DNA from: Candidatus Iainarchaeum sp.
GTDB taxonomy: Archaea; Iainarchaeota; Iainarchaeia; Iainarchaeales; VGJJ01
Assembly (NCBI GenBank): GCA_030688545.1
Contig: JAUYHT010000005.1
Coordinates: 1 to 11,052, forward strand
DNA length: 11,052 bases
Reading direction: 5' to 3'
Of the stretch, positions 2-11,052 are shown piece by piece; the first letter of the stretch is position 1, and each line of letters starts with the position of its first letter. Under the pieces are notes generated by a model. The model did no database searches. It was not told the origin of the DNA and saw only the letters and a program-made list of their open reading frames with translations. The position numbers were made by a program, and so were the translations under genes.

Positions 2-2851
2 GATGTGAATGCCTGCCGGGCCAACCAGACGTTTTCCTCCTGCTTTCCCGATGCCAATGTAAGCCAAGTAACCGCGGGCACTCCCATCCCTAACTCCGCT
101 ACTCCCGTGCACGGCCGCCGAATATTCTTCAAGCAACAACCCTCCTCCCAATGCACCGACACCTTCCTCTCGCATCCGGGGGGATGGAATGATCTTTTCA
201 TGCAGGGCCCTGACGCGCGGTTTCAAGGATCGCCGGATGTGAACATTGTTCTGGATGTCAATGTCACCCCGGACGGGCCTTACTATTGTGACCAGAATAT
301 TTCTGTTACTTTATCCATCACCGCCAATGCCGGCACACGCAAACCGGTGGATGTGATGGTGGTGTTCGACAAATCAGGAAGCATGAGTTGGGGGGGCCAA
401 CTCTCGACTTCCGATGCTCTCGGTATCGCCCTCTCAACAAGCACCGCGCTTATCGCGGACAGCTCGGGGGGGTTGCGGGATATCAATGTTGCCAACCCCG
501 GCCTGCCCATGTTCTTCGACACCTATAATTCTCCCGGAATCGGCCGGGATGTGGACGCTTTCGGAAACTATGCGTATCTCGCGGACGGCACGCAAGGATT
601 AAGGGTCGTTGGCATCTCAAACCCCATCAATATCTTTCCAGTGGCCCAGGTGGATGTGGGAGGGGGCGCTTATGGGGTCGCGGCGGAGGGCGATAAAACC
701 TATGTGGTCACGTTTTCGTCGTCCAATGTGGATGAAAGCATGACCGCCGGTACCAACCAGGTCCTGGTGATTGGACGCAATGCGTCCAACCTATTCGCCG
801 CCCAATCCTTCATCCCCAGCGTGGATTTCGTGAGCGGCGCCATGGCATACGTGCGCCGAGTAGGCAACCCTATTGGTAATCTGGAGGTGAATATCCGCGC
901 CACGCTCAATGGGCCTAACTTAGGCACCGCTACGTTATCCCCTGGAAGCCTATCGGCTTCCTACCAAAGCGCTATCGTCTCTTTTCCATCCATCATCCCC
1001 CTCACGAGTGGTTCCACCTACTATTTGGTGCTCACCACCCCCTCTACTAATAATTCCAATTATTACCAATGGGGCGCACGCAATGGCAATGCTTATTCCA
1101 GGGGGAACGCCTACCAAAATACATCCTCCCAGAATTGGGATGCCCGTTTTCAAACGCATTTTATTGATGGATTAATTGTATTGGATACCAGCACCCCCAC
1201 TTCGCCGACTATCATTGGAGCGGCTAGTCTGGATGACGGGTGGCGGGTGTGGGTGGATGGTGGCTATGCCTATGTTGCTGATGGAATCTCGGGAATGCGT
1301 ATTTTTGACGTGACCCAAAACACTCCCCAGGAGGTGGGTTTTTACAACACATCCGGCTACGCCTATGAAGTCAGTGTGGACTACCCTTATGCGTTCGTCT
1401 CCGACGGTCTGGCGGGGGTGAGGTTCTTTGACATCTCTAATCCTTCTTCTCCCAACCTTCTCAGCACGTATAACACTCCCGGCACGGCCTACGCGGCAAG
1501 GGCAGATGGCACCATTCTTTATGTGGCCGATGGAAGTTCCCTGCAGGTGTTGGATTTCAGCACCATCAATACCCCCGCCTTTATCGATGCCTACACAACC
1601 CCCTACCGCTACCGGGATCTCGAGATAAACAACGGGTGGGCGTACCTCGCGGTCGATAATGCCATCCCCGGGCTCATCACCATTGATTTGTCCCAGGGCC
1701 CCAAAGTGGATCAGGCCATCGTCGCGGCCCAGACATTCATTGATTTCAATGGGTGGAGTGTTCTGCAGGATCAGATGGGGTTGGTTACCTACAACACCCT
1801 TTCGTACCTCGATGAAGTACTGACCTCCAATTTCGCGGCGGTGCGCAACACCATTGGAAACATTGTGGCATTTGGCGGCACCGCCACGGGATCCGCCATC
1901 GACAGGGCCACTAACGAATTACAGAGTGTGCGGGCGAACCCACTCGCATTGAAATTCCAGGTCCTCATGTCGGACGGCCAAACCAATTATGGAACAGACC
2001 CCGACACCGCCGCCATCGCCGCGGCCAATGCTAATATCATCATCTACACGATCGGCTTCGGTGCCGATGCGGATGAAGATGAACTCAAGAGCATCGCCTC
2101 CATTACGGGGGGCCAATACTACTTCGCCTCCGACGCCAATGCGCTCGTGGATATATACGCGCTCATCGCCCAGAACATCCAGAACCTCGCCACGGATGCC
2201 AACATCAGCACCTTCTTCGATCCGGGAACCATTCTTGTGGATGATGGAAATGGTTCCTTCTCCAATGGCACCCTCGTCTTCGACATCAACACTCAACTCC
2301 CACCCCCCTGGATGGCCTCTTACATATTCAATATCCCCTGCGATTCCCAGCTCGCGTGCGAGACGCAGGTCATTTCCATCCCCTCCCCGGGAACCTTTTT
2401 CGAATACATTGACACCAATGGGGAGTCAGTGAGAGTGGATTGGAATGTATTCGTGACGGATATCTTCAACCAACGCGACCTCAACATTCAAATTCATTCC
2501 GGCGACATCCTTTCCCCCGGAAATGTGGATTTAGGAGTGGAAGTGATCAGCGCTGGGACGTTGGATGCGCCTTCTTCCGAAGTGCGTTTCTACCGCGGCC
2601 CACCCACGCAGAATGATGTGCTCGCCTCCCATACGGTTCCTCCATTATGCGGCCAAGCGGACCCGGTGTGCGCTGCATACGCCTATACCTTCACCCAGAA
2701 CCTGGGGGCCGAAGGGGAATTGTATGCTGTGGTGAATCCGGATGGGATCATTCCAGAGTGTTCCTACAACAACGAGGATGTCATCTTCTGCTACGCATTA
2801 CCCAATACTCAATTCTTCACCCTGGATTATTGGGCGTGGTTGCATGAATAA
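2..2851 (+). CDS. Large surface adhesin-like protein, 5' partial. It has a vWA/MIDAS domain split by an LVIVD-repeat beta-propeller, followed by a beta-sandwich region and a CARDB-like C-terminal domain.
   Basis: The reading frame is open to the window edge, and the first 30 aa contain no signal peptide or hydrophobic N-terminus, so the gene probably starts upstream. The GTG at position 5 is only the ORF-caller start. vWA motifs: VDVMVVFDKSGSMSW (DxSxS at D122/S124/S126), GGTATGSAI (T626), LMSDGQTN (D657), IIIYTIGFG and ITGGQYYFASD. LVIVD-type repeats: YAYLADGTQGLRVVGISNP, YAYVADGISGMRIFDVTQ, YAFVSDGLAGVRFFDISNPSSP, LYVADGSSLQVLDFS and AYLAVDNAIPGLITIDLS. The C-terminus (aa ~824-930) ends in AVVNPDGIIPECSYNNEDV, which resembles the CARDB terminal signature. 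The stop TAA is at 2849-2851. Confidence 0.9.
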   Translation, partial: DVNACRANQTFSSCFPDANVSQVTAGTPIPNSATPVHGRRIFFKQQPSSQCTDTFLSHPGGWNDLFMQGPDARFQGSPDVNIVLDVNVTPDGPYYCDQNISVTLSITANAGTRKPVDVMVVFDKSGSMSWGGQLSTSDALGIALSTSTALIADSSGGLRDINVANPGLPMFFDTYNSPGIGRDVDAFGNYAYLADGTQGLRVVGISNPINIFPVAQVDVGGGAYGVAAEGDKTYVVTFSSSNVDESMTAGTNQVLVIGRNASNLFAAQSFIPSVDFVSGAMAYVRRVGNPIGNLEVNIRATLNGPNLGTATLSPGSLSASYQSAIVSFPSIIPLTSGSTYYLVLTTPSTNNSNYYQWGARNGNAYSRGNAYQNTSSQNWDARFQTHFIDGLIVLDTSTPTSPTIIGAASLDDGWRVWVDGGYAYVADGISGMRIFDVTQNTPQEVGFYNTSGYAYEVSVDYPYAFVSDGLAGVRFFDISNPSSPNLLSTYNTPGTAYAARADGTILYVADGSSLQVLDFSTINTPAFIDAYTTPYRYRDLEINNGWAYLAVDNAIPGLITIDLSQGPKVDQAIVAAQTFIDFNGWSVLQDQMGLVTYNTLSYLDEVLTSNFAAVRNTIGNIVAFGGTATGSAIDRATNELQSVRANPLALKFQVLMSDGQTNYGTDPDTAAIAAANANIIIYTIGFGADADEDELKSIASITGGQYYFASDANALVDIYALIAQNIQNLATDANISTFFDPGTILVDDGNGSFSNGTLVFDINTQLPPPWMASYIFNIPCDSQLACETQVISIPSPGTFFEYIDTNGESVRVDWNVFVTDIFNQRDLNIQIHSGDILSPGNVDLGVEVISAGTLDAPSSEVRFYRGPPTQNDVLASHTVPPLCGQADPVCAAYAYTFTQNLGAEGELYAVVNPDGIIPECSYNNEDVIFCYALPNTQFFTLDYWAWLHE

Positions 2852-3845
2852 GCACTCCAATCAACGTGGGGTGCTATTCACCTTCCTCACCTTCCTCCTA
2901 GTGGGGGTGGTCATTTCTCTTGTGGTTTTCTCAGTGAATGTCAACCAACGCACGGCCCGCAACACCATCGACATCTCGGCGCTCAATGCCATCAACGCCA
3001 AATACGACGACATCACGGATGACATTATTACCTTAGACCATCCCATTGGGGTGCCCAGCATCCGTCAACGCATATTCCCTTTTACGTATACTATTGACGC
3101 TAACCGCTTTCATGTCGACCAAACCCTCCCTATTGCCACGGGAAAACTGGGCGCCTACTTCGACCTCATCCATGCCTACCGCCTCTTCGCCATGGACAAA
3201 AATGTCAGCCGCACCTATGATGGGGTGGATGTGATGATTGACCTCCCGCGCCCCCCGGCCTGGGGGGGGACGGCCTCCACGGCTCAATTCAATCTCCTCC
3301 CCCAATGTATCCAATATGCCCTCCGCGACGACACCATGGTGTGGCTAGAAAGCATTTCCCAGTTGGGTTGCTCCAATACCTTCTCGATGAAAGACCAGGT
3401 GGAAAGAGTGGACATCACCCTATCCTTGTTATCCACCGTAGACGACTTCAATGGGGTCGCCTGCTCATTCGACAACACCCCCCAATGCCGCGACGACCCT
3501 TATGACCCCGATTCCCCATTTCCCTACATCCACCTTTCCTTTCAGGATAGCAACTGCGCGCTATGCCCACCCACCTATCCCCTCATCATCCGCGGCCATT
3601 TCGATCCCGAATTCCCAAACACGATTGCTTATTCCTGCGGGGACGCCAATTGTGTATCTTCTCCCATCATAGTGCAATTCAGTGAAGGGGTGCGTGTTAC
3701 CCACGCCGGCACCCCCATTCGACTTGAAATGGACATGACATTTGTCCAGAAAATAGCGACCTTCTATTATCAGGACGCCAACTATAACGTTCGAAAACCG
3801 GGGTTCGACACCTACAAGAGCAATGCGGTGGTGTTCCCGACATGA
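2844..3845 (+). CDS. Type IV pilin-like protein (archaeal class III signal peptide) with a large Cys-rich extracellular domain; candidate minor pilin or adhesin subunit
   Basis: The ATG at 2844 overlaps the upstream stop (ATGAATAA), which suggests translational coupling. The N-terminus MNKHSNQRG/VLFTFLTFLLVGVVISLVVFSV has a short charged leader, R at -2 and G at -1, then about 22 hydrophobic residues. That is the layout of archaeal prepilin-peptidase (PibD/FlaK-type) substrates. There is no Glu at +5, unlike bacterial T4a/Flp pilins. The predicted mature part contains 8 Cys. The 2742 start in the ORF track lies inside the upstream gene and was not used. Confidence 0.7.
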   Translation: MNKHSNQRGVLFTFLTFLLVGVVISLVVFSVNVNQRTARNTIDISALNAINAKYDDITDDIITLDHPIGVPSIRQRIFPFTYTIDANRFHVDQTLPIATGKLGAYFDLIHAYRLFAMDKNVSRTYDGVDVMIDLPRPPAWGGTASTAQFNLLPQCIQYALRDDTMVWLESISQLGCSNTFSMKDQVERVDITLSLLSTVDDFNGVACSFDNTPQCRDDPYDPDSPFPYIHLSFQDSNCALCPPTYPLIIRGHFDPEFPNTIAYSCGDANCVSSPIIVQFSEGVRVTHAGTPIRLEMDMTFVQKIATFYYQDANYNVRKPGFDTYKSNAVVFPT

Positions 3846-4960
3846 AGACTATGGATCTCTTCGCTCTCGCCTTGGCGCTCATCGTGGGGGGCGGGCTCTT
3901 CTACTATCTCATTTACCAACCCTACACCGAAACACCCGCTACGGCCCCCACCTGGACGATTGATGCTCCGTCCTCAGTGGGGGTGGGAGAATCTTTTAAC
4001 CTGACCATCACCCTCACAGGGGGGGATGGCCAGATGCTGACGCTCCAGCAGGACGAAAAGGAGTCCCAATCCCTCTGCTCGGGCGACCCATGTATCGTTT
4101 CATTCCCCCTCCGGTTCGACGCCGCTGGATTACAAATTCTGATTATCCGCCTCGGCCAATCCTTTCGACAAGTGGCAATTCCCGCCACCCAAACGGGACG
4201 CGTGTGCCTCGATGCCACCCTTGAAGGGCAGTGTTCCCAAACCCTTCCTTATCGGTGTTCGAACACCCACCTCATTGTCGATTGTGACAGGTGTGGGTGT
4301 CCAAAAGGGTTGGTGTGCACGAACACCGAATGTGTCGCGCCCCCTTTATCATTAACCATTTCCGCGCTTCTTGTCGACGAGGTGGCCTATTCGACACGCC
4401 CGGTGTCCCTTACCATTACCATCCATAATGACACAGAACATTCCGTGGAGGATATCTTCCTCTTCTTCATCGACGCGCTTGATAATAATATGGTTATCCA
4501 AACCACTCCCCAAACCGCGGTCTTCACCTTGCCTCCGCAAGGCAATCAGTCATTCACATTCTCATTCCGCCTTCCCGAGAATACACAAGCATTACGCGCC
4601 CGCCTGCACGAAAACACACCCCCCTACTCTTCCGATCACGCGCTTGCGACTTCGGAAGATATCCCTATCCACGTGATAATTGACAATGATCCCCCCGCAC
4701 CCCCCACCGGGCTCACATTCCAAAACCCCTATCTTGAATGGGTCGCTTCGATATCCCCCGACACGGAGGTTTACATCATTTACCAACAGGACTTAGCCGC
4801 GGGGGGATTCACTACCTATTCTATATTCGGGGAAACCCCCGACACCCACTATCTCCTTCCCCCCCAACTCGAGGCCCGCGCCTATGTCATCCGCGCGCGA
4901 GATCATGCTGGTAACCTGGGAAGCCCCTCTGACCCCCTCCTGGTTCCCGCCACCCCTTAA
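3842..4960 (+). CDS. N-terminally membrane-anchored surface protein with Ig/CARDB-like modules, an 8-Cys cluster and a C-terminal fibronectin type III-like domain
   Basis: The ATG at 3842 overlaps the upstream TGA (ATGA, 4-nt overlap). The N-terminus MKTMDLFALALALIVGGGLFYYLIY is a single hydrophobic helix with no obvious K/R-G cleavage motif. There are 8 Cys within aa 122-164 (CLDATLEGQCSQTLPYRCSNTHLIVDCDRCGCPKGLVCTNTEC). The C-terminus PPAPPTGLTFQNPYLEWVASISPDTEVYIIYQQD...YVIRARDHAGNLGSPSD looks like an Fn3 domain. Confidence 0.75.
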   Translation: MKTMDLFALALALIVGGGLFYYLIYQPYTETPATAPTWTIDAPSSVGVGESFNLTITLTGGDGQMLTLQQDEKESQSLCSGDPCIVSFPLRFDAAGLQILIIRLGQSFRQVAIPATQTGRVCLDATLEGQCSQTLPYRCSNTHLIVDCDRCGCPKGLVCTNTECVAPPLSLTISALLVDEVAYSTRPVSLTITIHNDTEHSVEDIFLFFIDALDNNMVIQTTPQTAVFTLPPQGNQSFTFSFRLPENTQALRARLHENTPPYSSDHALATSEDIPIHVIIDNDPPAPPTGLTFQNPYLEWVASISPDTEVYIIYQQDLAAGGFTTYSIFGETPDTHYLLPPQLEARAYVIRARDHAGNLGSPSDPLLVPATP

Positions 4961-4984: not shown

Positions 4985-5494
4985 ATGGAACGTCCCCCGG
5001 CTCCCCCCCACCCTTTCTGGAATGGGTTAACCAAACTCCTCCACCTGCATACCGCCCCCTCGCCAGGAAAGGAGGCTGCCTCTTTTTTACGCCCACCCAT
5101 TTCCACTATTTCACCCCCCCGCCCCGTGCGCGGGCCGTCCATCCCAATACCCACCATACCCCCCCGTCAGCGTTCACTTCTCCCACAAGGGTATGTCTCT
5201 TCCCCCCAAACCCCACCCCCTTCTCCTCTTCCCACACGAACCCGATCACCTAATCCTTCTTCCATGCCGCGCCAGGAGGAAGATCCATTCATCGTCACCG
5301 ACTATGATAAGATTCTCGAACTCGTGAAGAGCCGCCGCGCCATCAAACTGGATGAGATCGCCCGGCTATTAGGGCTCATGGAAGAGAAGGTGGCGCAAGA
5401 ACTCCAAACCCTGGAAGACAATGGTCTAGTCGACGTGAAATACCCCGCATTCGGGGAACCCATCATCCTCTACAAAGAACCCGTGGCTCGGTGA
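4985..5494 (+). CDS. Small winged-helix (wHTH) DNA-binding protein, with a Pro-rich low-complexity N-terminal extension if the 4985 start is real; the alternative start at 5264 gives a 76-aa wHTH-only protein
   Basis: The C-terminal 75 aa (DYDKILELVKSRRAIKLDEIARLLGLMEEKVAQELQTLEDNGLVDVKYPAFGEPIILY) have an HTH-plus-wing pattern. The stop at 5492-5494 lies 4 nt before the ATPase start. The first 93 codons are Pro/Ser/Thr-rich and read from a C-rich, G-poor tract, so they could be non-coding. The TATA-like box at -27 favours 4985. A mini hairpin plus T6 at 5072-5088 inside the ORF argues against it. Confidence 0.55.
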   Translation: MERPPAPPHPFWNGLTKLLHLHTAPSPGKEAASFLRPPISTISPPRPVRGPSIPIPTIPPRQRSLLPQGYVSSPQTPPPSPLPTRTRSPNPSSMPRQEEDPFIVTDYDKILELVKSRRAIKLDEIARLLGLMEEKVAQELQTLEDNGLVDVKYPAFGEPIILYKEPVAR

Positions 5495-5498
5495 AAAA

Positions 5499-6983
5499 AT
5501 GGCGACCCTGGACTCCTACCAAATCCCCTCCTCCATCCCCCTGCAAATTGATATCCGCACGGAGGAAAATGAGTTCGTCAACATCTACCACCTCCACACC
5601 CCCCGCGTGGGTTTGGGAACACGTGCCCTCCTCAATGACCTCAAATCCAGGATCATCTCGGAAGTGAACATCTCATCCGAAAAGATGCTCGACGCCAAAT
5701 TCGTGGGGGAACTCCGCACCCAATTCAGCGAAAAAGCCGAGGAACTCCTGTTGAAGGAATTACCCACCCTCTCAACCCTGGAAAGGAAACAGCTCGCGGC
5801 CATATTGCTCAATGAGATGGTGGGGTTAGGGCCCATCGAATTCCTATTGGATGACGGAAACCTCGAGGAAATCGTGGTGAACTCCGCCCAAGAACCCATA
5901 TGGGTGTACCACAAGAAACACGGGTGGCTGAAAACCAACATCACCCTCCACCCGGAGGCGGAGATACAGAACTATGCCAGCATCATTGCTCGGCGCGTGG
6001 GCAAACAAGTCACCATCCTCAACCCTCTTCTGGATGCCCACCTCATCACGGGGGACCGGGCCAACTCCACCCTCTTCCCTATATCATCACGCGGCAACAC
6101 CCTCACCATCCGCCGATTCCGCCGCGACCCTTGGACGGTAACGGATTTCAATTCAAGCAAAACCTCCACTCCTGAACTCATGGCCCTCATCTGGCTGGCC
6201 ATGGAATACGAACTGAACATCATCGTCTCCGGGGGAACAGGGAGTGGAAAGACCACCTTGTTGAATGTCATGCTCCCCTTCATCCAACCCAATCAGCGCG
6301 TGATTACTATAGAAGACACTCGTGAACTTTCTCTTCCCGACTTTTTACACTGGGTGCCCATGACGACGCGTGAGCCAAACTCGGAGGGCAAAGGATCCAT
6401 CACCATGTTGGATTTGCTCGTGAACTCATTGCGAATGCGCCCCGACCGAATTATTGTGGGGGAAATCCGACGCCAAAGGGAAGCGGAAGTGATGTTCGAA
6501 GCCATGCACACCGGACACTCCGTATATGCCACGGTGCACGCCAATACGGCAGAAGAAACCATTAATCGTCTCGTCAGCCCGCCCATTGAGATTGCCCCCG
6601 CCCTCTTGGAAGCGGTGCACCTGAATGTGGTGATGTTCCGCAACCGGCGATTGGGGGTGCGCCGTATCCTTCAACTGGCGGAGTTCGTTCCCATGAAGAC
6701 GGGGAGCGAAGGCAAAACCCAACTGAAACCCAATATCCTCTACCGCTGGCGCGCCGCCAATGATTCCATCGAGAAATACGCCGAAAGCATTCGCCTCTAC
6801 GACGAATTGGCTTTACACACGGGCTACACCCACCAGGAGATCAACCAAAACCTGGTGGAGAAAAAGAAGATCCTCGACTGGATGGGCACCCAAAAGTTGC
6901 GCGACATCAATGACGTAGGGAAGGTGATGGCTCAATACTACAGTGACCCCGATGCCATCCTCAAACGAGCCGGGGTGAAATGA
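5499..6983 (+). CDS. Type II/IV secretion-system ATPase of the FlaI/ArlI / PilB / TadA(CpaF) superfamily (T2SSE); the assembly motor of the pilus-like apparatus
   Basis: Walker A is SGGTGSGKTT (nt 6231-6257). The Asp box is VITIEDTRELSL. Walker B is RPDRIIVGEIR (from nt 6438). The His box is MHTGHSVYATVHAN. The upstream segment ANSTLFPISSRGNTLTIRRF and LIWLAMEYELNIIVSG resemble archaeal FlaI-type sequences (compare PRGSSFTIRKF and LWLAIEHKFSAIVVG, recalled from memory). Confidence 0.95.
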   Translation: MATLDSYQIPSSIPLQIDIRTEENEFVNIYHLHTPRVGLGTRALLNDLKSRIISEVNISSEKMLDAKFVGELRTQFSEKAEELLLKELPTLSTLERKQLAAILLNEMVGLGPIEFLLDDGNLEEIVVNSAQEPIWVYHKKHGWLKTNITLHPEAEIQNYASIIARRVGKQVTILNPLLDAHLITGDRANSTLFPISSRGNTLTIRRFRRDPWTVTDFNSSKTSTPELMALIWLAMEYELNIIVSGGTGSGKTTLLNVMLPFIQPNQRVITIEDTRELSLPDFLHWVPMTTREPNSEGKGSITMLDLLVNSLRMRPDRIIVGEIRRQREAEVMFEAMHTGHSVYATVHANTAEETINRLVSPPIEIAPALLEAVHLNVVMFRNRRLGVRRILQLAEFVPMKTGSEGKTQLKPNILYRWRAANDSIEKYAESIRLYDELALHTGYTHQEINQNLVEKKKILDWMGTQKLRDINDVGKVMAQYYSDPDAILKRAGVK

Positions 6984-6987
6984 CTAT

Positions 6988-7881
6988 ATGATCGTGCGTT
7001 TCACGATGCCCTTCAGCCTGCTCCCCATGCCCATGCTCCGCTGGGCGAGCAAACACTTCATCGGGTTGGGCAGCCAATTCGGAAAAATGCTGCCCCTTCA
7101 CGACAGCGACATGAAAAAAGCCGAATTTCCAGTGACGGTGAAGGAGTATGCCACCATGTCCATGGTGATCGTGCTCTTCTATTTCATCTTCTTCTCATTC
7201 CTTTTCTTCGTAATGAGCTTCCGCCTATTAGGGACACTGGACTTGCTCACCCCGCTCGGGGTGAGTTTCTTCCTCTCGTTCCTGGTTCTGCTCCAACTGA
7301 TCACGTATCCCATTATCAAGGTCAAGAAGAAAGTGCGCGATCTGGATAGGAATTTGGTGTACGCCCTCCGCACCATCCTCGTTCAACTCTACTCCGGGGT
7401 CTCATTGTATGATGCCATGAAGGTGGTGGCCGAAGGCAACTATGGCGCCGTATCCAAGGAATTCAAGAAGGCGGTTGATCGCATCTCCACCGGGGAAATA
7501 CAAGAGGTGGCCCTGGAACGCATCGCGGAATACAACCCCAGCCTCTATTTCCGCCGCGCCATCTGGCAAATAGTAAACGGGATGAAGGCCGGAGCGGATG
7601 TCACCGCGGTCCTTGCCGAGAGCGTGAACTCATTGACGGACGCCCAATCCATCCAGATTAGGAATTATGAATCCCAGATGAAAGTCCTTTCCCTCGTGTA
7701 CATGATGCTCGGGGTCATCGTCCCCGCGCTGGGAATCACCTTCCTCATTGTCCTATCCTCATTCCCCCAAATCCAGGTGAGCGAGACCTATTTTTGGATC
7801 CTCCTCCTGTTCGTGGGGGTGGGACAATTTATGTTCCTGGGCGTGGTGAAGAGCAAGCGTCCCACTCTGCTGGGAGAATAA
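6988..7881 (+). CDS. Polytopic membrane platform protein with a single T2SSF domain (TadB-like; equivalent to the N-terminal half of FlaJ/PilC)
   Basis: There is a 4-nt gap after the ATPase stop, and a GGTGA element lies about 8 nt upstream of the ATG. Hydrophobic helices flank a cytoplasmic helical domain, LVYALRTILVQLYSGVSLYDAMKVVAEGNYGAVSKEFKKAVDRISTGEIQEVALERIAEYNPSLYFRRAIWQIVNGMKAGADVTAVL, which is typical of T2SSF. The exact start is uncertain because internal Met codons exist. Confidence 0.85.
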   Translation: MIVRFTMPFSLLPMPMLRWASKHFIGLGSQFGKMLPLHDSDMKKAEFPVTVKEYATMSMVIVLFYFIFFSFLFFVMSFRLLGTLDLLTPLGVSFFLSFLVLLQLITYPIIKVKKKVRDLDRNLVYALRTILVQLYSGVSLYDAMKVVAEGNYGAVSKEFKKAVDRISTGEIQEVALERIAEYNPSLYFRRAIWQIVNGMKAGADVTAVLAESVNSLTDAQSIQIRNYESQMKVLSLVYMMLGVIVPALGITFLIVLSSFPQIQVSETYFWILLLFVGVGQFMFLGVVKSKRPTLLGE

Positions 7882-7896: not shown

Positions 7897-8904
7897 ATGT
7901 CGGCTGACATTGGCATTCCCGTATTGCGGGAAATACAAGATGCGTTTGAAACGCAGTTCCGCTACCTCGGCATGCGGATATCTTCTCGAAAATTTGTCAT
8001 CAACATCGTCCTGATGGCCTTCGTATTAGGGGTGCTATCTACCATTATCACCTCCATTTTCCTCCAATGGAATATCATCCTCGTCTTCTTAGGAGCGGCC
8101 GTTGTATCCCTAGGGTTCATCGGCGCGACCTACCTTTTGCTCGATCTCCAAACGGAGGGGCGGGGCAGCCAAGTCGAAAAAATCCTTCCCGATGCGCTGC
8201 AACTCATCGCGAGCAACATCAAATCAGGGTTAACCACGGAACGCGCCCTCCTGGTGTCGGCGCGCCCCGAATTCGGGCCATTGGAAACCGAACTGAAACG
8301 GGTATCCACCCGCATCCTCTCGGGAATGCCAGTGGAGAAAGCCATTCTGGAGATTCCCCGCCACATCAAATCAACATTAGTTGAGCGTACCGTCTGGCTG
8401 CTCGCCCGAGGCATTTCTTCTGGGGGGGAAATAGCGGATCTCCTCTTACAACTTTCTCGCAACCTCCGCACCCAATTGGCGTTGCAGAGCGAGGCCCGCG
8501 CCTCCATTTCTATTTATCTAATTCTCATCTTCTTCTCCGCGGCATTCGGGGGACCCGCGCTGTATGCGGTGTCGTCGTTCATTGTGCAGGTCATGGCCTC
8601 CCAGATATCATCCACCCCGCAAGTAGACCCAGGGGTGCTCGCCCAAGCGGGATCGCGCTTCTCTGGATTGAGTGGGTTTATCAGCGGGCAAGGAGAGATA
8701 GTTGATCCCCAATTCATCGTCTTGTTCGCCCAAATCATGCTCTTCGTAGGAGGCATATTCGCCTCGCTCATATTGGGGGCCATCGCCACCGGAAGAGAAA
8801 AGGACGGGGTGAAATACATCCCCGTGGTACTGCTTTTCTCATTCGGCCTATTTTATCTTGTACGGTTCGTCCTGGTGGCGGCTTTCGGGGATCTGCTGCT
8901 TTAG
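7897..8904 (+). CDS. Second polytopic membrane platform protein with a single T2SSF domain (TadC-like; equivalent to the C-terminal half of FlaJ/PilC)
   Basis: The T2SSF-like cytoplasmic domain is ILPDALQLIASNIKSGLTTERALLVSARPEFGPLETELKRVSTRILSGMPVEKAILEIPRHIKSTLVERTVWLLARGISSGGEIADLLLQLSRNL. It is flanked by N-terminal hydrophobic helices (IVLMAFVLGVLSTIITSIFL, IILVFLGAAVVSLGFIGATYLLL) and several C-terminal ones. An SD element lies upstream. Confidence 0.85.
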   Translation: MSADIGIPVLREIQDAFETQFRYLGMRISSRKFVINIVLMAFVLGVLSTIITSIFLQWNIILVFLGAAVVSLGFIGATYLLLDLQTEGRGSQVEKILPDALQLIASNIKSGLTTERALLVSARPEFGPLETELKRVSTRILSGMPVEKAILEIPRHIKSTLVERTVWLLARGISSGGEIADLLLQLSRNLRTQLALQSEARASISIYLILIFFSAAFGGPALYAVSSFIVQVMASQISSTPQVDPGVLAQAGSRFSGLSGFISGQGEIVDPQFIVLFAQIMLFVGGIFASLILGAIATGREKDGVKYIPVVLLFSFGLFYLVRFVLVAAFGDLLL

Positions 8905-9010
8905 GGTCGGTTATGGGAGAATCCTGCCTGCTTTTGCTGGTAGATAAATTTGGGGGCTGAAATTGACGGGTCTACTTGAAATTTGGTAAATATCTGAATA
9001 CGAAATACCC

Positions 9011-9050
9011 ACTTAAAGATAGTTTAAAATACTTTAAGATACTTTAAGAT
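9011..9050 (+). repeat. Four tandem copies of a 10-bp unit (consensus ACTTTAAGAT) immediately upstream of the ATG at 9054
   Basis: The four units are ACTTAAAGAT (9011-9020, 1 mismatch), AGTTTAAAAT (9021-9030, 2 mismatches), ACTTTAAGAT (9031-9040) and ACTTTAAGAT (9041-9050). The second unit contains the TATA-like box. Confidence 0.8.
9023..9031 (+). promoter_or_regulatory. Candidate archaeal TATA box (TTTAAAATA) for a leaderless transcript of the 9054 gene
   Basis: It matches TTTAWATA-type archaeal TATA consensus sequences. It spans -31 to -23 relative to the ATG at 9054. No SD-like element lies between it and the ATG. Confidence 0.45.
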
Positions 9051-9053
9051 TGA

Positions 9054-10409
9054 ATGACTGTAGAAGAGCTCCTGAGTCAAGAGGAAAGCGAGTCGCTCGA
9101 AAGAAAGTCCAGTATAGCCGATTCAAAAGGCATTGGAGAAACGGCTTGTGCGTTCGCTAACCAGCCATCTGGTGGGTTTTTCCTAATTGGGGTAGATAAA
9201 GCAGGAAACGTAGTTGGTGTTCCCTCACAAAAGGTGGATGATTGGACTCAAGCGGTTGCGAGTATTATTCAGTCTGCAAGGCCAGTACCAAAAGCTGATT
9301 TCAAAATAGTTGAAAATAATGCCAAAAAGATCTTGGTTGTTCAGGTGCATTCAGTGAATGACGAATATGCTTGCTTCTATCATGGAAAAATATACGTCCG
9401 AGTTGGAAATACAACACGTGCATTAAATGAAAAGGAGTTAATTGATTTTTTGCGTGTAAGGCAAATCCTTAGTTTTGAGGAAACAGTTTCAAGCGTCAAA
9501 TTAGAAGATATTGAAAATTCCAAGGTTCAAGAATACCTAAAACTTCGAAATGAAAAAATAAGTCTAAATGAAAAAACGGCCCTTCAAAATATGGGGTTAC
9601 TGAAAGGCCCAAATAAAGAAACTCCTACAAATTTGGCCCTTCTATTTTTTGCCCGAAAAATCGAAGCAGTTATTCCACAAAGCGAAATACGGTTAACTCG
9701 GTTTAAGGGGGTTGAGCCCATTCATATTGCGAATACTCAGCGGCTTACGGCCACTCTCATTGATGCAATCGAAAAAACGATTGGATTCATTGATTTATAC
9801 ACTGAAAAAGAGGTAATAATCCAGTTAACCCGAAGAACCGAAAAGCCAACTTATCCTCTTGAAGTAATTCGTGAAGCCGTGATCAATGCGTTGGGGCATC
9901 GGGATTACTTTAATCAAAATGCGACTCAAGTAAGCATTTTTGATGATCGCGTTGAAATAACAAATCCAGGATCCTTGCCAAAGGGACTGCCCATTTCACA
10001 GCTCGGCAGACTGAGCGTCCATCGAAATCCAAGATTGTATCAATTGCTCAGTCATGCGAAATACGGTGAAGGGCTCGGGACTGGAATTCCACGAATGATT
10101 GAACGGATGCGTGCTTGGAAATTGCCTGATCCAAAATTTGAGGAAATTGGCAACGCTTTTCGCGTGACACTATATAACACTAAAAGTACCCAAAAAATCA
10201 AGCGATTGGAACTAACTCCGCTTCAGGAAAAAATACTCCAGCTTATCCGTGAATCCAAAAGTACAAAAACGAAGACGCTTACTGAAAAAACTAACTATTC
10301 TGCACCGACAATCATTAATAATCTGAATGAACTTGAAAAAAGAGGGCTGATTAAAAAAATAGGTAAGACACGCGGGGCTCATTACATTTTACGAAAAGGC
10401 AGCACTTGA
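9054..10409 (+). CDS. AlbA_2 (Schlafen-like / divergent AAA_4) - HATPase_c_4 - C-terminal wHTH protein, COG2865-type; commonly annotated as a putative transcriptional regulator or RecG-like C-terminal domain protein
   Basis: The N-terminus EESESLERKSSIADSKGIGETACAFANQPSGGFFLIGVDKAGNVVGV ... KILVVQVHS ... IYVRVGNTTRALNEKEL fits the AlbA_2 pattern (E..lE.K ... AfAN..GG.l.iGV.d.G.vvG ... yiR.G..t). The middle region YPLEVIREAVINALGHRDYFNQNATQVSIFDDRVEITNPGSLPKG ... HRNPRLYQLL ... GEGLGTGIPRMIERM fits HATPase_c_4. The C-terminus LTPLQEKILQLIRESKSTKTKTLTEKTNYSAPTIINNLNELEKRGLIKKIGKTRGAHYIL is a wHTH. Confidence 0.9.
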   Translation: MTVEELLSQEESESLERKSSIADSKGIGETACAFANQPSGGFFLIGVDKAGNVVGVPSQKVDDWTQAVASIIQSARPVPKADFKIVENNAKKILVVQVHSVNDEYACFYHGKIYVRVGNTTRALNEKELIDFLRVRQILSFEETVSSVKLEDIENSKVQEYLKLRNEKISLNEKTALQNMGLLKGPNKETPTNLALLFFARKIEAVIPQSEIRLTRFKGVEPIHIANTQRLTATLIDAIEKTIGFIDLYTEKEVIIQLTRRTEKPTYPLEVIREAVINALGHRDYFNQNATQVSIFDDRVEITNPGSLPKGLPISQLGRLSVHRNPRLYQLLSHAKYGEGLGTGIPRMIERMRAWKLPDPKFEEIGNAFRVTLYNTKSTQKIKRLELTPLQEKILQLIRESKSTKTKTLTEKTNYSAPTIINNLNELEKRGLIKKIGKTRGAHYILRKGST

Positions 10410-10464
10410 ACTGGAAGTTAGATGCAGCGACCGTGAGACGCGTTGCCAATTTGAATGCGATGGC

Positions 10465-10469
10465 TTTTT
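10465..10469 (+). terminator. Oligo-T tract (T5), a possible archaeal-style terminator after the 9054-10409 gene
   Basis: GGCTTTTTC lies 56 nt after the TGA stop. Only a weak 4-bp GCCA/TGGC stem precedes it. Confidence 0.3.
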
Positions 10470-10490
10470 CAGATATGATATCCGACATAA

Positions 10491-10499
10491 CTAAAAACT
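10491..10499 (+). promoter_or_regulatory. Candidate archaeal TATA box (CTAAAAACT) for a leaderless transcript starting near the ATG at 10519
   Basis: The octamer TAAAAACT at 10492-10499 lies exactly 27 nt upstream of the ATG at 10519. The octamer and the spacing are the same as at 4958-4965 relative to the ATG at 4985. Confidence 0.4.
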
Positions 10500-10518
10500 G
10501 AGCGCTTTGAATTTCGAT

Positions 10519-11025
10519 ATGAGTGAAGATATTGCAAAGAAAAAACTGTTTTTTCAAGCTCCTCCAGAGAAACTTACTGGAATTGCGAAGTCGATTCAAG
10601 ACTCTATTGACTCACTTAATAATATGTTCAAGCCACTCCCCATTTTTATCCCCGAATCTCCTCTCGTCATTCAAGAACGGAACCAGTGGGCCCGACATGA
10701 TGAAATGGTTGGAATTTTGAAAAGCGGTTCAAATCAACAAAATTTGTTGAGTTACATTGCAACGGTTGCAGCCTTGGTCGGATCTATTCCAACGGTTGAT
10801 ATCTTGATTGAATATGGGTTCATTACACCGGAGATTGGAAAGAGTTTGATAATGCTTCTTTCCTTTGGGCTAATCATTGCGCTTTTTCTCTTTGTAGTGT
10901 ACTATTGCGTACTTAATGTTAGATCTGCGGCTGAAAAAAAGCAACCTGAAAGTTTGACATTGAAGAACGAAAGTGACAAAGAGCTTGAGGATCAGGAGGG
11001 CTTTGTTAGCGCTATAGCGCTATAG
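10519..11025 (+). CDS. Hypothetical small membrane protein: soluble N-terminal half, two predicted TM helices and an acidic C-terminal tail
   Basis: The ATG at 10519 (MSEDIAKKK...) is preferred over the TTG at 10507 in the ORF track. The hydrophobic segments are LLSYIATVAALVGSIPTVDILI and SLIMLLSFGLIIALFLFVVYYCVL. I recognise no family. The last 5 codons and the TAG stop (11023-11025) lie inside the terminal tandem repeat. Confidence 0.55.
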   Translation: MSEDIAKKKLFFQAPPEKLTGIAKSIQDSIDSLNNMFKPLPIFIPESPLVIQERNQWARHDEMVGILKSGSNQQNLLSYIATVAALVGSIPTVDILIEYGFITPEIGKSLIMLLSFGLIIALFLFVVYYCVLNVRSAAEKKQPESLTLKNESDKELEDQEGFVSAIAL

Positions 11026-11052
11026 CACTATAGCGCTATAGCACTATAGCGC
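11008..11052. repeat. Tandem array of the palindromic octamer GCTATAGC, alternating with ACTATAGC (16-bp super-period), truncated by the window end
   Basis: The units are GCTATAGC (11011-18), GCTATAGC (11019-26), ACTATAGC (11027-34), GCTATAGC (11035-42), ACTATAGC (11043-50) and GC... to the window end. GCTATAGC is its own reverse complement. Confidence 0.85.

What the first reader, a model, noticed from the sequence alone, without database searches (positions are those of the whole stretch)
392..1699. vWA/MIDAS domain split open by a ~435-aa LVIVD beta-propeller, which is itself interrupted by a ~150-aa module (three-level nested domains)
Seen in sequence:
- The vWA beta1 strand and MIDAS loop (VDVMVVFDKSGSMSW, aa 115-129) are canonical.
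- The next expected vWA element is helix alpha1 (KVDQAIVAAQTFIDF). It and the remaining MIDAS residues (GGT626, SD657G) do not appear until aa ~566-727.
- The intervening ~435 aa consist of about 7 LVIVD-type blades.
- One blade is broken between KTYVVT (aa 231-236) and DGLIVLDTSTP (aa 388-398). The break holds ~150 aa (nt 713-1162) with the pattern AQSF..VDFVSGAMAYVRRVGNP.GNLEVNI...GP.LGTATL...SYQSAIVSFPS.IPLTSGSTYYLVL.
- From memory, that pattern resembles DUF4082-type beta-sandwich modules. This is unverified.

Established knowledge: bacterial T4P tip adhesins of the PilY1/PilC class combine a vWA-like domain with a beta-propeller, and TadG-type pseudopilins carry vWA domains.

Inference: this protein may be an independently evolved, architecturally different analogue (propeller inside the vWA rather than after it). 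It may act as the adhesive or tip component of the adjacent archaeal-type pilus machinery. An insertion directly after the metal-binding loop could couple ligand binding by the propeller to MIDAS geometry.
Basis: partly seen in the sequence, partly recalled or inferred. Interest (0 to 1): 0.78.

Follow-up and report, generated by a model that had tools for sequence, protein, structure and literature searches.

The report
Nested-domain vWA adhesin of archaeal pilus
A large surface protein in a type IV pilus operon of a DPANN archaeon (Iainarchaeota) has its metal-binding vWA adhesion domain split by a seven-bladed propeller that itself carries a lectin-like module, and related proteins hold other domains at the same split point, so it looks like a swappable binding-head slot.

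Summary
The ORF at nt 2-2851 (949 aa, 5' end cut by the window) holds a vWA domain in two pieces. The first piece is beta1 plus the DxSxS loop (aa 116-130). The second is alpha1 to alpha6 (aa 567-731). Between them lies a 7-blade LVIVD propeller (aa 131-566). A ~150-aa beta-sandwich (aa 239-388) interrupts blade 3 between its strands C and D.

All five metal-site (MIDAS) residues are invariant in 43 homologues. Splicing the two pieces restores a full-length Pfam VWA match. AlphaFold2 is confident (pLDDT 86).

The family is confined to Iainarchaeota and unnamed-archaeon MAGs and always sits in the same pilus operon. Full-length orthologues start with a class-III-like signal, [KR][GA]|FxF[ST]x[DE].

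New here:
- Orthologues in the same operon slot carry a different, non-propeller insert at the same split point. Micrarchaeota vWA pilins are split there too.
- The inner module is distantly DUF4082-like and resembles phage tail receptor-binding domains. It varies in copy number and sits in blade 2, 3 or 4, or in the vWA alpha3-beta4 loop.

Best reading: a pilin-like adhesin of an archaeal type IV pilus. The architecture is shown; the function is inferred. It is a new variant of a known kind.

The parts
2..346 (+). N-terminal region of the big ORF (aa 1-115). It is cut by the window edge, and the pilin-like signal and TM helix seen in orthologues lie upstream of the window.
   Evidence: The ORF runs off the 5' end. 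Invariant Cys C5, C14, C51 and C96. pLDDT is low for aa 1-80. Orthologue N-termini carry [KR][GA]|FxF[ST]x[DE] followed by about 20 hydrophobic residues.
347..391 (+). vWA piece 1: strand beta1 plus MIDAS loop 1, D123-x-S125-x-S127 (aa 116-130).
392..715 (+). Inserted LVIVD beta-propeller: blades 1-2 and strands A-C of blade 3 (aa 131-238).
   Evidence: Pfam LVIVD. AF2 strands 132-238 with pLDDT above 90.
716..1165 (+). Second-level insert: a ~150-aa jelly-roll / CBM-like beta-sandwich module (aa 239-388). It is distantly DUF4082-like.
   Evidence: Module HMM. 13 of 21 family copies hit PF13313. AF2 pLDDT 94. Foldseek matches phage baseplate and tail proteins, PHR domains and CBM6. Weak NCBIfam choice-of-anchor R hit.
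1166..1699 (+). Propeller continued: strand D of blade 3 and blades 4-7 (aa 389-566).
1700..2194 (+). vWA piece 2: alpha1 to alpha6 with MIDAS T627 and D658 (aa 567-731).
   Evidence: Pfam VWA profile positions 16-172. T627 and D658 are invariant. AF2 element order is alpha1, beta2, beta3, alpha2, alpha3, beta4, alpha4, beta5, alpha5, beta6, alpha6.
2195..2851 (+). Two C-terminal all-beta domains with conserved Cys pairs (aa 732-949), plus the stop codon.
   Evidence: AF2 strands 733-946. Invariant C780, C786, C920 and C930. The top Foldseek hit 4fx5 is annotated only as a von Willebrand factor type A protein, with 291 aligned columns. Which residues it covers, and whether it carries a beta domain after the vWA, were not checked.
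2844..3845 (+). Downstream gene g2 (333 aa), with a pilin-like N-terminus ..NQRG|VLFTFLTFLLVGVV. It overlaps the big ORF by 8 nt.
   Evidence: conserved in all related loci. No Pfam family.
3842..4960 (+). Downstream gene g3 (372 aa), with an N-terminal TM helix. Function unknown; conserved partner.
4985..5494 (+). Small protein with a Pro-rich N-terminal half and a winged-helix HTH.
5499..6983 (+). Type IV filament assembly ATPase (TadA / ArlI-FlaI-like).
   Evidence: Pfam T2SSE, E 3e-39. NCBIfam FlaI 269 bits and TadA-family 206 bits.
6988..7881 (+). Platform protein 1 (T2SSF; resembles the TadB/TadC or N-terminal half of ArlJ/UpsF).
7897..8904 (+). Platform protein 2 (T2SSF; resembles the TadC or C-terminal half of ArlJ/UpsF).

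Best explanation
The gene encodes a large pilin-like adhesin of an archaeal (Iainarchaeota, DPANN) type IV pilus.

Shown:
- Its ligand-binding head is one vWA/MIDAS domain whose chain leaves the fold straight after the first metal-binding loop.
- The chain then builds a complete 7-bladed LVIVD propeller and returns to finish the vWA fold.
- The propeller chain leaves once between strands C and D of blade 3 to build a lectin/CBM-like beta-sandwich.
- The split point is a conserved insertion slot. The two vWA pieces and all five MIDAS residues stay constant, while the inserted cargo differs between lineages.

Inferred:
- In full-length orthologues an N-terminal class-III-type signal and hydrophobic helix lets the protein be processed and mounted on, most likely at the tip of, the filament built by the ATPase and two platform proteins encoded downstream.
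- The insertion point is at the MIDAS end of beta1, so the propeller should sit beside the metal site. The two would then form a composite binding face, with the module adding glycan or surface recognition.
- Variation of the cargo tunes what the pilus sticks to.
For: Split vWA:
- Discontinuous Pfam match, restored to full length by splicing.
- Unbiased window scan: z of about 20 for aa 107-130.
- Gap-free alignment across the junction to the vWA structures 6pyo and 4rck.
- D123, S125, S127, T627 and D658 are invariant in 43 sequences.
- AF2 pLDDT is 86 overall and above 90 across both junctions. The C-piece supplies only beta2 to beta6.
- The vWA pieces are the most conserved parts: mean pairwise identity 0.75 and 0.54, against about 0.42 for the propeller.

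Insertion slot:
- Orthologues P0125 and P0135-P0138 have the same N- and C-terminal regions, and P0125 sits in the same operon position. They carry 1-2 copies of an unrelated Cys-rich ~125-aa module at the same point and have no LVIVD.
- Micrarchaeota vWA pilins (P0150 and others) are split there by about 115 aa. P0150 passes the Pfam Class_IIIsignal cut-off (24.5 bits against 23.7) and lies in a T4P operon.

Module:
- HMM hits in blade 2 (P0224), blade 3 (most members), blade 4 (P0024, P0026), as tandem copies (P0002, P0050) and in the vWA alpha3-beta4 loop (P0002, P0008, P0011-14, P0029, P0226). It is absent from about 20 members.
- Fold matches phage tail and baseplate proteins (TM 0.69-0.85), CBM6 and PHR domains.

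Pilus context:
- Gene order is conserved in every locus with enough flank.
- Upstream small genes carry Flp-like or class-III-like N-termini, such as KGQ|VALEY.
- The family N-terminal motif is present in about 42 of 49 members.
- The top whole-model structural hits include the pilus tip adhesin SpaC.
Against: - The window copy lacks its N-terminus, so its own signal peptide cannot be seen.
- Pfam PF04021 does not detect the N-termini of Iainarchaeota orthologues. The motif rests on pattern inspection.
- No prepilin peptidase gene was found within 10 kb in L001 or L002.
- The window's own module fails the Pfam DUF4082 model.
- There are no experimental data for any family member, and no paper was found in the searched library.
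- The lifestyle of Iainarchaeota (symbiont or free-living) is unsettled, so the ligand is unknown.
Confidence: 0.7

Rival explanations
1. The protein is a membrane-anchored surface adhesin or pilus-base component. Its N-terminal helix is an uncleaved signal anchor. It is co-expressed with the pilus but never polymerised into it, as has been hypothesised for TadG.
For: - No Pfam or NCBIfam pilin or class-III model matches Iainarchaeota N-termini.
- The protein is very large (about 1050 aa) for a filament subunit.
- Makarova et al. 2016 (PMC4858521) note that bacterial TadG vWA proteins are hypothesised to anchor the pilus.
Against: - The conserved [KR][GA]|F motif with an acidic residue at +6 and a 20-residue hydrophobic stretch looks like a prepilin cleavage site.
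- Three or four neighbouring genes carry the same kind of N-terminus.
- A Micrarchaeota relative passes the Class_IIIsignal model.
- Bulky modular pilins are documented: PilB of S. sanguinis (PMC8179133).
Confidence: 0.22
2. It is a BatA/BatB-type or regulatory vWA membrane protein that is unrelated to adhesion and only happens to neighbour pilus genes.
For: - The best sequence matches of the vWA core are BatA-like (NCBIfam NF047508, E 6e-14) and 4rck / 3ibs BatB.
- g3 has a faint BatD hit (E 0.047).
Against: - Scores are far below the family cut-off (52 bits against 380).
- No MoxR ATPase lies in the locus.
- Synteny with pilus genes is strict across about 35-60% identity.
- The extracellular-type propeller, lectin-like module and Cys-rich beta domains fit a surface binder.
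Confidence: 0.04
3. The apparent nesting is an artefact: a misassembly, a frameshift or a chance motif.
For: The window is a metagenomic contig with a GC break near nt 8900.
Against: - There is one continuous ORF.
- An identical independent record exists (P0001).
- More than 40 orthologues on separate contigs share both junctions.
- The window scan gives a z of about 20.
Confidence: 0.01

Closest known systems
PilB of Streptococcus sanguinis (modular type IV pilin with a C-terminal vWA module; PMC8179133)
   Same: - A class-III-type N-terminus followed by a bulky vWA/MIDAS adhesion module.
- The gene lies in a type IV pilus operon.
- In PilB the MIDAS is flanked by inserted 'arms'.
- Likely tip location.
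   Different: - PilB is bacterial and its inserts are short arms (one is a four-stranded sheet).
- Here the insert is a whole 7-blade propeller with a third domain nested inside it.
- There are also extra N- and C-terminal domains, and the organism is an archaeon.
- No sequence relationship beyond the vWA fold.
Sortase-pilus tip adhesins RrgA / GBS104 / SpaC (vWA with two inserted arms; PMC7893114; PDB 6m48, 6m3y)
   Same: - vWA at the distal end of a pilus.
- Insertions around the MIDAS form the binding cradle and are the most variable part.
- SpaC is among the top structural matches of the whole model.
   Different: - Unrelated assembly system (sortase, covalent).
- The inserts are hairpins and loops, not autonomous domains.
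- No propeller.
PilY1 / PilC (bacterial T4aP tip adhesin; vWA-like N-terminal domain followed by a C-terminal propeller)
   Same: The same two fold types (vWA and beta-propeller) are combined in a pilus-associated adhesin.
   Different: - In PilY1 the domains are in series, not nested.
- PilY1 is not a pilin and has a different propeller family.
- No PilY1/PilC Pfam match here.
- The resemblance is an analogy, not homology.
Integrins (own knowledge: the alpha-I vWA domain is inserted into the alpha-subunit propeller; the beta subunit nests PSI > hybrid > beta-I)
   Same: - A vWA/MIDAS domain and a 7-blade propeller are joined by domain insertion.
- Three-level nesting has a precedent in the beta subunit.
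   Different: - The topology is inverted: here the propeller is inside the vWA.
- The insertion is in the beta1-alpha1 (MIDAS loop 1) connection.
- No sequence relationship beyond the fold.
DUF4082 (PF13313), choice-of-anchor R, and phage tail or baseplate receptor-binding beta-sandwiches
   Same: The inner module shares this fold and has weak sequence similarity to it.
   Different: - The window copy scores below threshold.
- Here the module occurs only as an internal insert whose position and copy number vary.

Membership tests
vWA domain (PF00092) with MIDAS | Full alpha/beta fold, beta1 to beta6 with the flanking helices | tested here: met
   It is met only when the two pieces are joined: profile positions 1-172 of 174 at 81.4 bits. 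AF2 gives beta1 at aa 116-123 and alpha1 to alpha6 at aa 568-731.
vWA domain (PF00092) with MIDAS | DxSxS ... T ... D metal-coordinating residues | tested here: met
   D123, S125, S127, T627 and D658 are invariant in 43 sequences.
vWA domain (PF00092) with MIDAS | Binds Mg2+ or Mn2+ | not testable with these tools
   This needs purified protein.
LVIVD-repeat beta-propeller (PF08309) | Repeated LVIVD units forming a closed propeller | tested here: met
   5 repeats at 107 bits after removing the module. 7 blades of 4 strands in the AF2 model. WD40 and DDB1 propellers appear among the Foldseek hits.
DUF4082 (PF13313) | Match to the family model above threshold | tested here: inconclusive
   The window copy has no hit at E <= 1. 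13 of 21 homologous copies hit, with a best E-value of 1.5e-8. The fold is compatible.
Type IV pilin / class III signal peptide proteins (modular pilins) | [quoted passage not shown] | tested here: inconclusive
   The window copy is truncated. Orthologues show [KR][GA]|FxF[ST]x[DE] plus a hydrophobic stretch, but PF04021 does not score them. The Micrarchaeota relative P0150 passes PF04021.
Type IV pilin / class III signal peptide proteins (modular pilins) | Encoded with the assembly ATPase, platform proteins and other pilins | tested here: met
Type IV pilin / class III signal peptide proteins (modular pilins) | Cleaved by a prepilin peptidase and incorporated into filaments | not testable with these tools
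   This needs biochemistry or imaging. No peptidase gene lies within 10 kb in L001 or L002.
PilY1 / PilC | PilY1-type C-terminal propeller domain | tested here: not met
   The Pfam scan gives only LVIVD and Beta_propel matches and no PilC/PilY1 family.
TadG-type pseudopilin | N-terminal Tad (PF13400) domain followed by an uninterrupted vWA | tested here: not met
   Neither the window protein nor the orthologue N-termini hit PF13400, and the vWA is interrupted.

The most novel reading that the evidence does not exclude
The connection after MIDAS loop 1 is an evolved 'cargo slot'. DPANN archaea swap whole binding domains into it (a propeller, Cys-rich sandwiches, lectin-like modules). Ligand capture by the cargo is mechanically coupled to the adjacent metal site. 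The result would be an inverted-integrin adhesin that sets the host or substrate specificity of the pilus.
Probability: 0.2. Interest if true: 0.8.

Novelty: new variant of a known kind. Interest (0 to 1): 0.6.

Why it matters
- It is a clear natural case of three-level domain nesting with the integrin topology inverted (propeller inside vWA).
- The insertion site is demonstrably reused with different cargo. That is useful for understanding how domain insertion evolves and for engineering vWA scaffolds.
- It gives DPANN biology a concrete candidate for the molecule that mediates attachment, in a group whose cell-cell or surface recognition is largely unknown.
- The variable cargo suggests where specificity lies and gives testable constructs: MIDAS mutants and the isolated module on glycan arrays.

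Tried and rejected
- **Module homologues.** The word-indexed protein search with the module alignment A2 returned no hit at all, not even the family itself. I treated this as a technical failure, so the module's distribution outside the family is still unknown.
- **Module against PDB sequences.** The module profile found nothing. Only fold comparison was informative.
- **Pfam on other pieces.** Scans of the orthologue N-terminal regions, g2, g3 and the alternative inserts gave no significant family.
- **Exhaustive profile search with the whole-protein alignment**. It was swamped by giant LVIVD proteins (112,345 hits). It served only to show that the family is small, about 35-40 clusters at 50% identity, and to add a few members.
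- **Whole-model Foldseek**. The output lists no aligned ranges and coordinates are not exposed, so I could not measure beta1 packing directly. I substituted HMM splicing, the window scan and comparative evidence.
- **Literature searches**. No description of this family or architecture was found.
- **Rejected readings.** A Bat-type protein: scores are far below cut-off and there is no MoxR. A PilY1 or TadG homologue: the defining domains are absent. An intein: the inserts are folded beta domains with no splicing motifs, unlike the true intein seen in a related ATPase. An assembly artefact.
Full report
**What is there**

The window opens inside a long + strand ORF (frame of nt 2, stop at nt 2849-2851; 949 aa present).
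- VDVMVVFDKSGSMSW at aa 116-130
- KVDQAIV at aa 568
- GGT at aa 625
- SDG at aa 657
- KTYVVT at aa 232-237
- DGLIVLDTSTP at aa 389-399

**The vWA domain really is split**

- Pfam VWA matches aa 568-719 to profile positions 16-172 of 174 only. The piece carrying beta1 and DxSxS is missing from that stretch.
- An artificial join of aa 96-130 to aa 566-735 extends the match to positions 1-172. The score rises from 69.1 to 81.4 bits. VWA_2 rises from 25.5 bits (below its cut-off) to 40.7 bits (above it).
- I built an HMM from 30 canonical uninterrupted vWA domains and spliced every possible 22-aa window of aa 1-545 in front of aa 566-735. Windows starting at aa 107-118 score highest (146.1 bits). 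The C-piece alone scores 112.9. All other windows score 114.3 +/- 1.6, with a maximum of 126.3.
- The spliced sequence aligns gap-free through the junction to the CLCA1 vWA structure 6pyo: VCLVLDKSGSMATGNRLNRLNQAGQLF against VMVVFDKSGSMSWGPKVDQAIVAAQTF.
- In an alignment of 43 family members, D123, S125, G126, S127, M128, T627 and D658 are invariant. That is the complete MIDAS set, although its parts lie 300-600 residues apart.
- AlphaFold2 with this alignment gives mean pLDDT 86.1, above 90 through both junctions. Beta1 is at aa 116-123. After the insert the order is canonical: alpha1 (568-580), beta2, beta3, alpha2, alpha3, beta4, alpha4, beta5, alpha5, beta6, alpha6 (to 731). The C-piece therefore supplies only five of the six strands and no DxSxS.

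**The insert is a propeller, itself interrupted**

- The AF2 secondary structure shows 28 strands in seven groups of four between aa 132 and aa 562.
- An all-beta block at aa 243-386 sits between strand C (aa 232-238) and strand D (aa 390-395) of blade 3.
- Deleting aa 238-388 raises Pfam LVIVD from 3 to 5 repeats and from 79 to 107 bits.
- Modelled alone, the module has pLDDT 94 and pTM 0.89.
- Its best structural matches are:
  - phage phi812 baseplate proteins and a mycobacteriophage central fibre (TM 0.60-0.70), then PHR domains, CBM6/CBM36 and the Cwp84 lectin-like domain;
  - predicted viral proteins, several of them annotated as phage minor tail or tail proteins (TM up to 0.85 at 2.4 A; the two best matches carry no name).
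- By sequence, the window copy matches no Pfam family. 13 of 21 homologous copies hit DUF4082 (best E 1.5e-8).
- NCBIfam gives a sub-threshold choice-of-anchor R hit.

**Family and distribution**

- About 50 homologues share the architecture. At 50% clustering the exhaustive search shows roughly 35-40 clusters.
- In GTDB species representatives, matches beyond the vWA C-piece occur in Candidatus Iainarchaeum and unnamed 'archaeon' MAGs. One 3-kb contig is labelled Thaumarchaeota. Everything else matches only the vWA C-piece.
- Every member has DxSGSM followed 306-322 residues later (no module), about 455 residues later (one module) or about 605 residues later (two modules) by helix alpha1.

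**The split point is a reusable slot**

- I searched with an orthologue from which the propeller had been deleted. This recovered P0125 and P0135-P0138, which share the N- and C-terminal regions and have no LVIVD.
- Their vWA is split at the same place by one or two copies of an unrelated Cys-rich ~125-aa module with no Pfam match.
- P0125 sits in exactly the same operon position.
- More distant Micrarchaeota proteins such as P0150 are pilins by the Pfam Class_IIIsignal model (24.5 bits; cut-off 23.7). They lie in T4P operons, end in a vWA, and are split after DRSGSM by about 115 aa.
- The DxSxS-to-Thr spacing runs as follows:

| Protein group | DxSxS-to-Thr spacing (aa) |
|---|---|
| Canonical vWA | about 69 |
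| Micrarchaeota | about 180 |
| P0125 | 189 |
| P0135 | 316 |
| Propeller, no module | about 360 |
| Window protein | 502 |

Constant halves with variable cargo are strong evolutionary evidence that the halves form one domain.

**The inner module is itself mobile within the family**

- It is absent from about 20 members.
- It is present once in blade 3 in most other members.
- It is in blade 2 in P0224 and in blade 4 in P0024 and P0026, always replacing the same C-D turn.
- It is tandem in P0002 and P0050.
- It is additionally inserted in the vWA alpha3-beta4 loop in P0002, P0008, P0011-14, P0029 and P0226. From known vWA topology (not measured here), that loop lies opposite the MIDAS.
- In neighbour-joining trees the vWA-loop copy of P0029 groups with the propeller copies of its own lineage. 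The loop copies of the window's clade group with that clade's propeller copies. This suggests at least two independent intragenic duplications into the same loop. These trees are rough.
- Within the window's clade the module is the least conserved region (0.53 identity) and the vWA pieces the most conserved (0.86 and 0.70).

**Context and function**

- Downstream genes in the window are:
  - a 333-aa protein with a pilin-like N-terminus (QRG|VLFTFL...);
  - a 372-aa TM protein;
  - a wHTH protein;
  - a TadA/ArlI-like ATPase;
  - two T2SSF platform proteins that match the two halves of ArlJ/UpsF.
- This order is conserved in all related loci with enough flank.
- Upstream in full loci lie three or four small genes with Flp-like or class-III-like N-termini: KGQ|VALEY, RRGQ|ISVEL and RKGQ|SIML. 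The first has a weak PF04021 hit.
- Full-length orthologues of the big protein begin with a short basic segment, then [KR][GA]|F[AVT]F[ST]x[DE] and about 20 hydrophobic residues, in about 42 of 49 cases.
- Whole-model Foldseek puts the vWA protein 4fx5 and the pilus tip adhesin SpaC at the top.
- Together this supports a pilin-like adhesin mounted on the pilus.
- By topology the propeller leaves and re-enters at the MIDAS end of beta1. It should therefore flank the metal site, as the 'arms' do in RrgA, PilB and SpaC (PMC8179133, PMC7893114).
- Filament incorporation, metal binding, ligand identity and any propeller-MIDAS coupling are inference.

**Comparison and novelty**

- It works like PilB, RrgA, SpaC and PilY1. 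It fails the membership tests for PilY1 and TadG, because no defining domains were found.
- Relative to integrins (own knowledge) the nesting is inverted.
- Makarova et al. 2016 list vWA proteins only as putative regulators of archaeal T4P and do not mention this family.
- No paper in the searched library describes the architecture.
- The proteins are deposited as 'VWA domain-containing protein'.
- I rate it a new variant of a known kind.

Noticed in passing
window 8900-11052: GC falls from about 0.54 to about 0.40. The stretch holds an AlbA_2/Schlafen + HATPase_c_4 + wHTH gene (9054-10409) and a small TM ORF (10507-11025). In related loci the second platform gene is followed by KaiC-like ATPase and DUF7504 genes instead. 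This could be a foreign island or a chimeric join.
   Followed up: partly
window 9031-9050: A tandem 10-mer, 'tactttaaga' twice, lies just upstream of the ATG at nt 9054.
   Followed up: no
L003 15498-18533 (probably also L012 about 16960-20700): The pilus ATPase orthologue is a 1011-aa ORF. It carries a ~515-aa insertion right after the Walker B motif (LTIED|S...) that ends ...VVCHN|T and contains LAGLIDADG-like motifs. This is an intein. The window's ATPase has none.
   Followed up: partly
window 4985-5494: The small wHTH protein has a Pro/Ser-rich low-complexity N-terminal half. GC skew here reaches -0.36. Its length varies widely between loci, from 169 to about 596 aa.
   Followed up: no
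window 2844-2851: The downstream pilin-like gene most likely starts at the ATG at nt 2844. It would then overlap the stop of the big ORF by 8 nt, which suggests translational coupling.
   Followed up: no
P0220 (family member, 1262 aa), aa 447-687: The module HMM hits in two adjacent pieces, which suggests a partial duplication of the module or a further insertion inside it.
   Followed up: no
L001, L002, L083, L084: KaiC-like ATPase genes (PF06745/DnaB_C, DUF7504) flank these pilus operons. This matches the association reported by Makarova et al. 2016.
   Followed up: no
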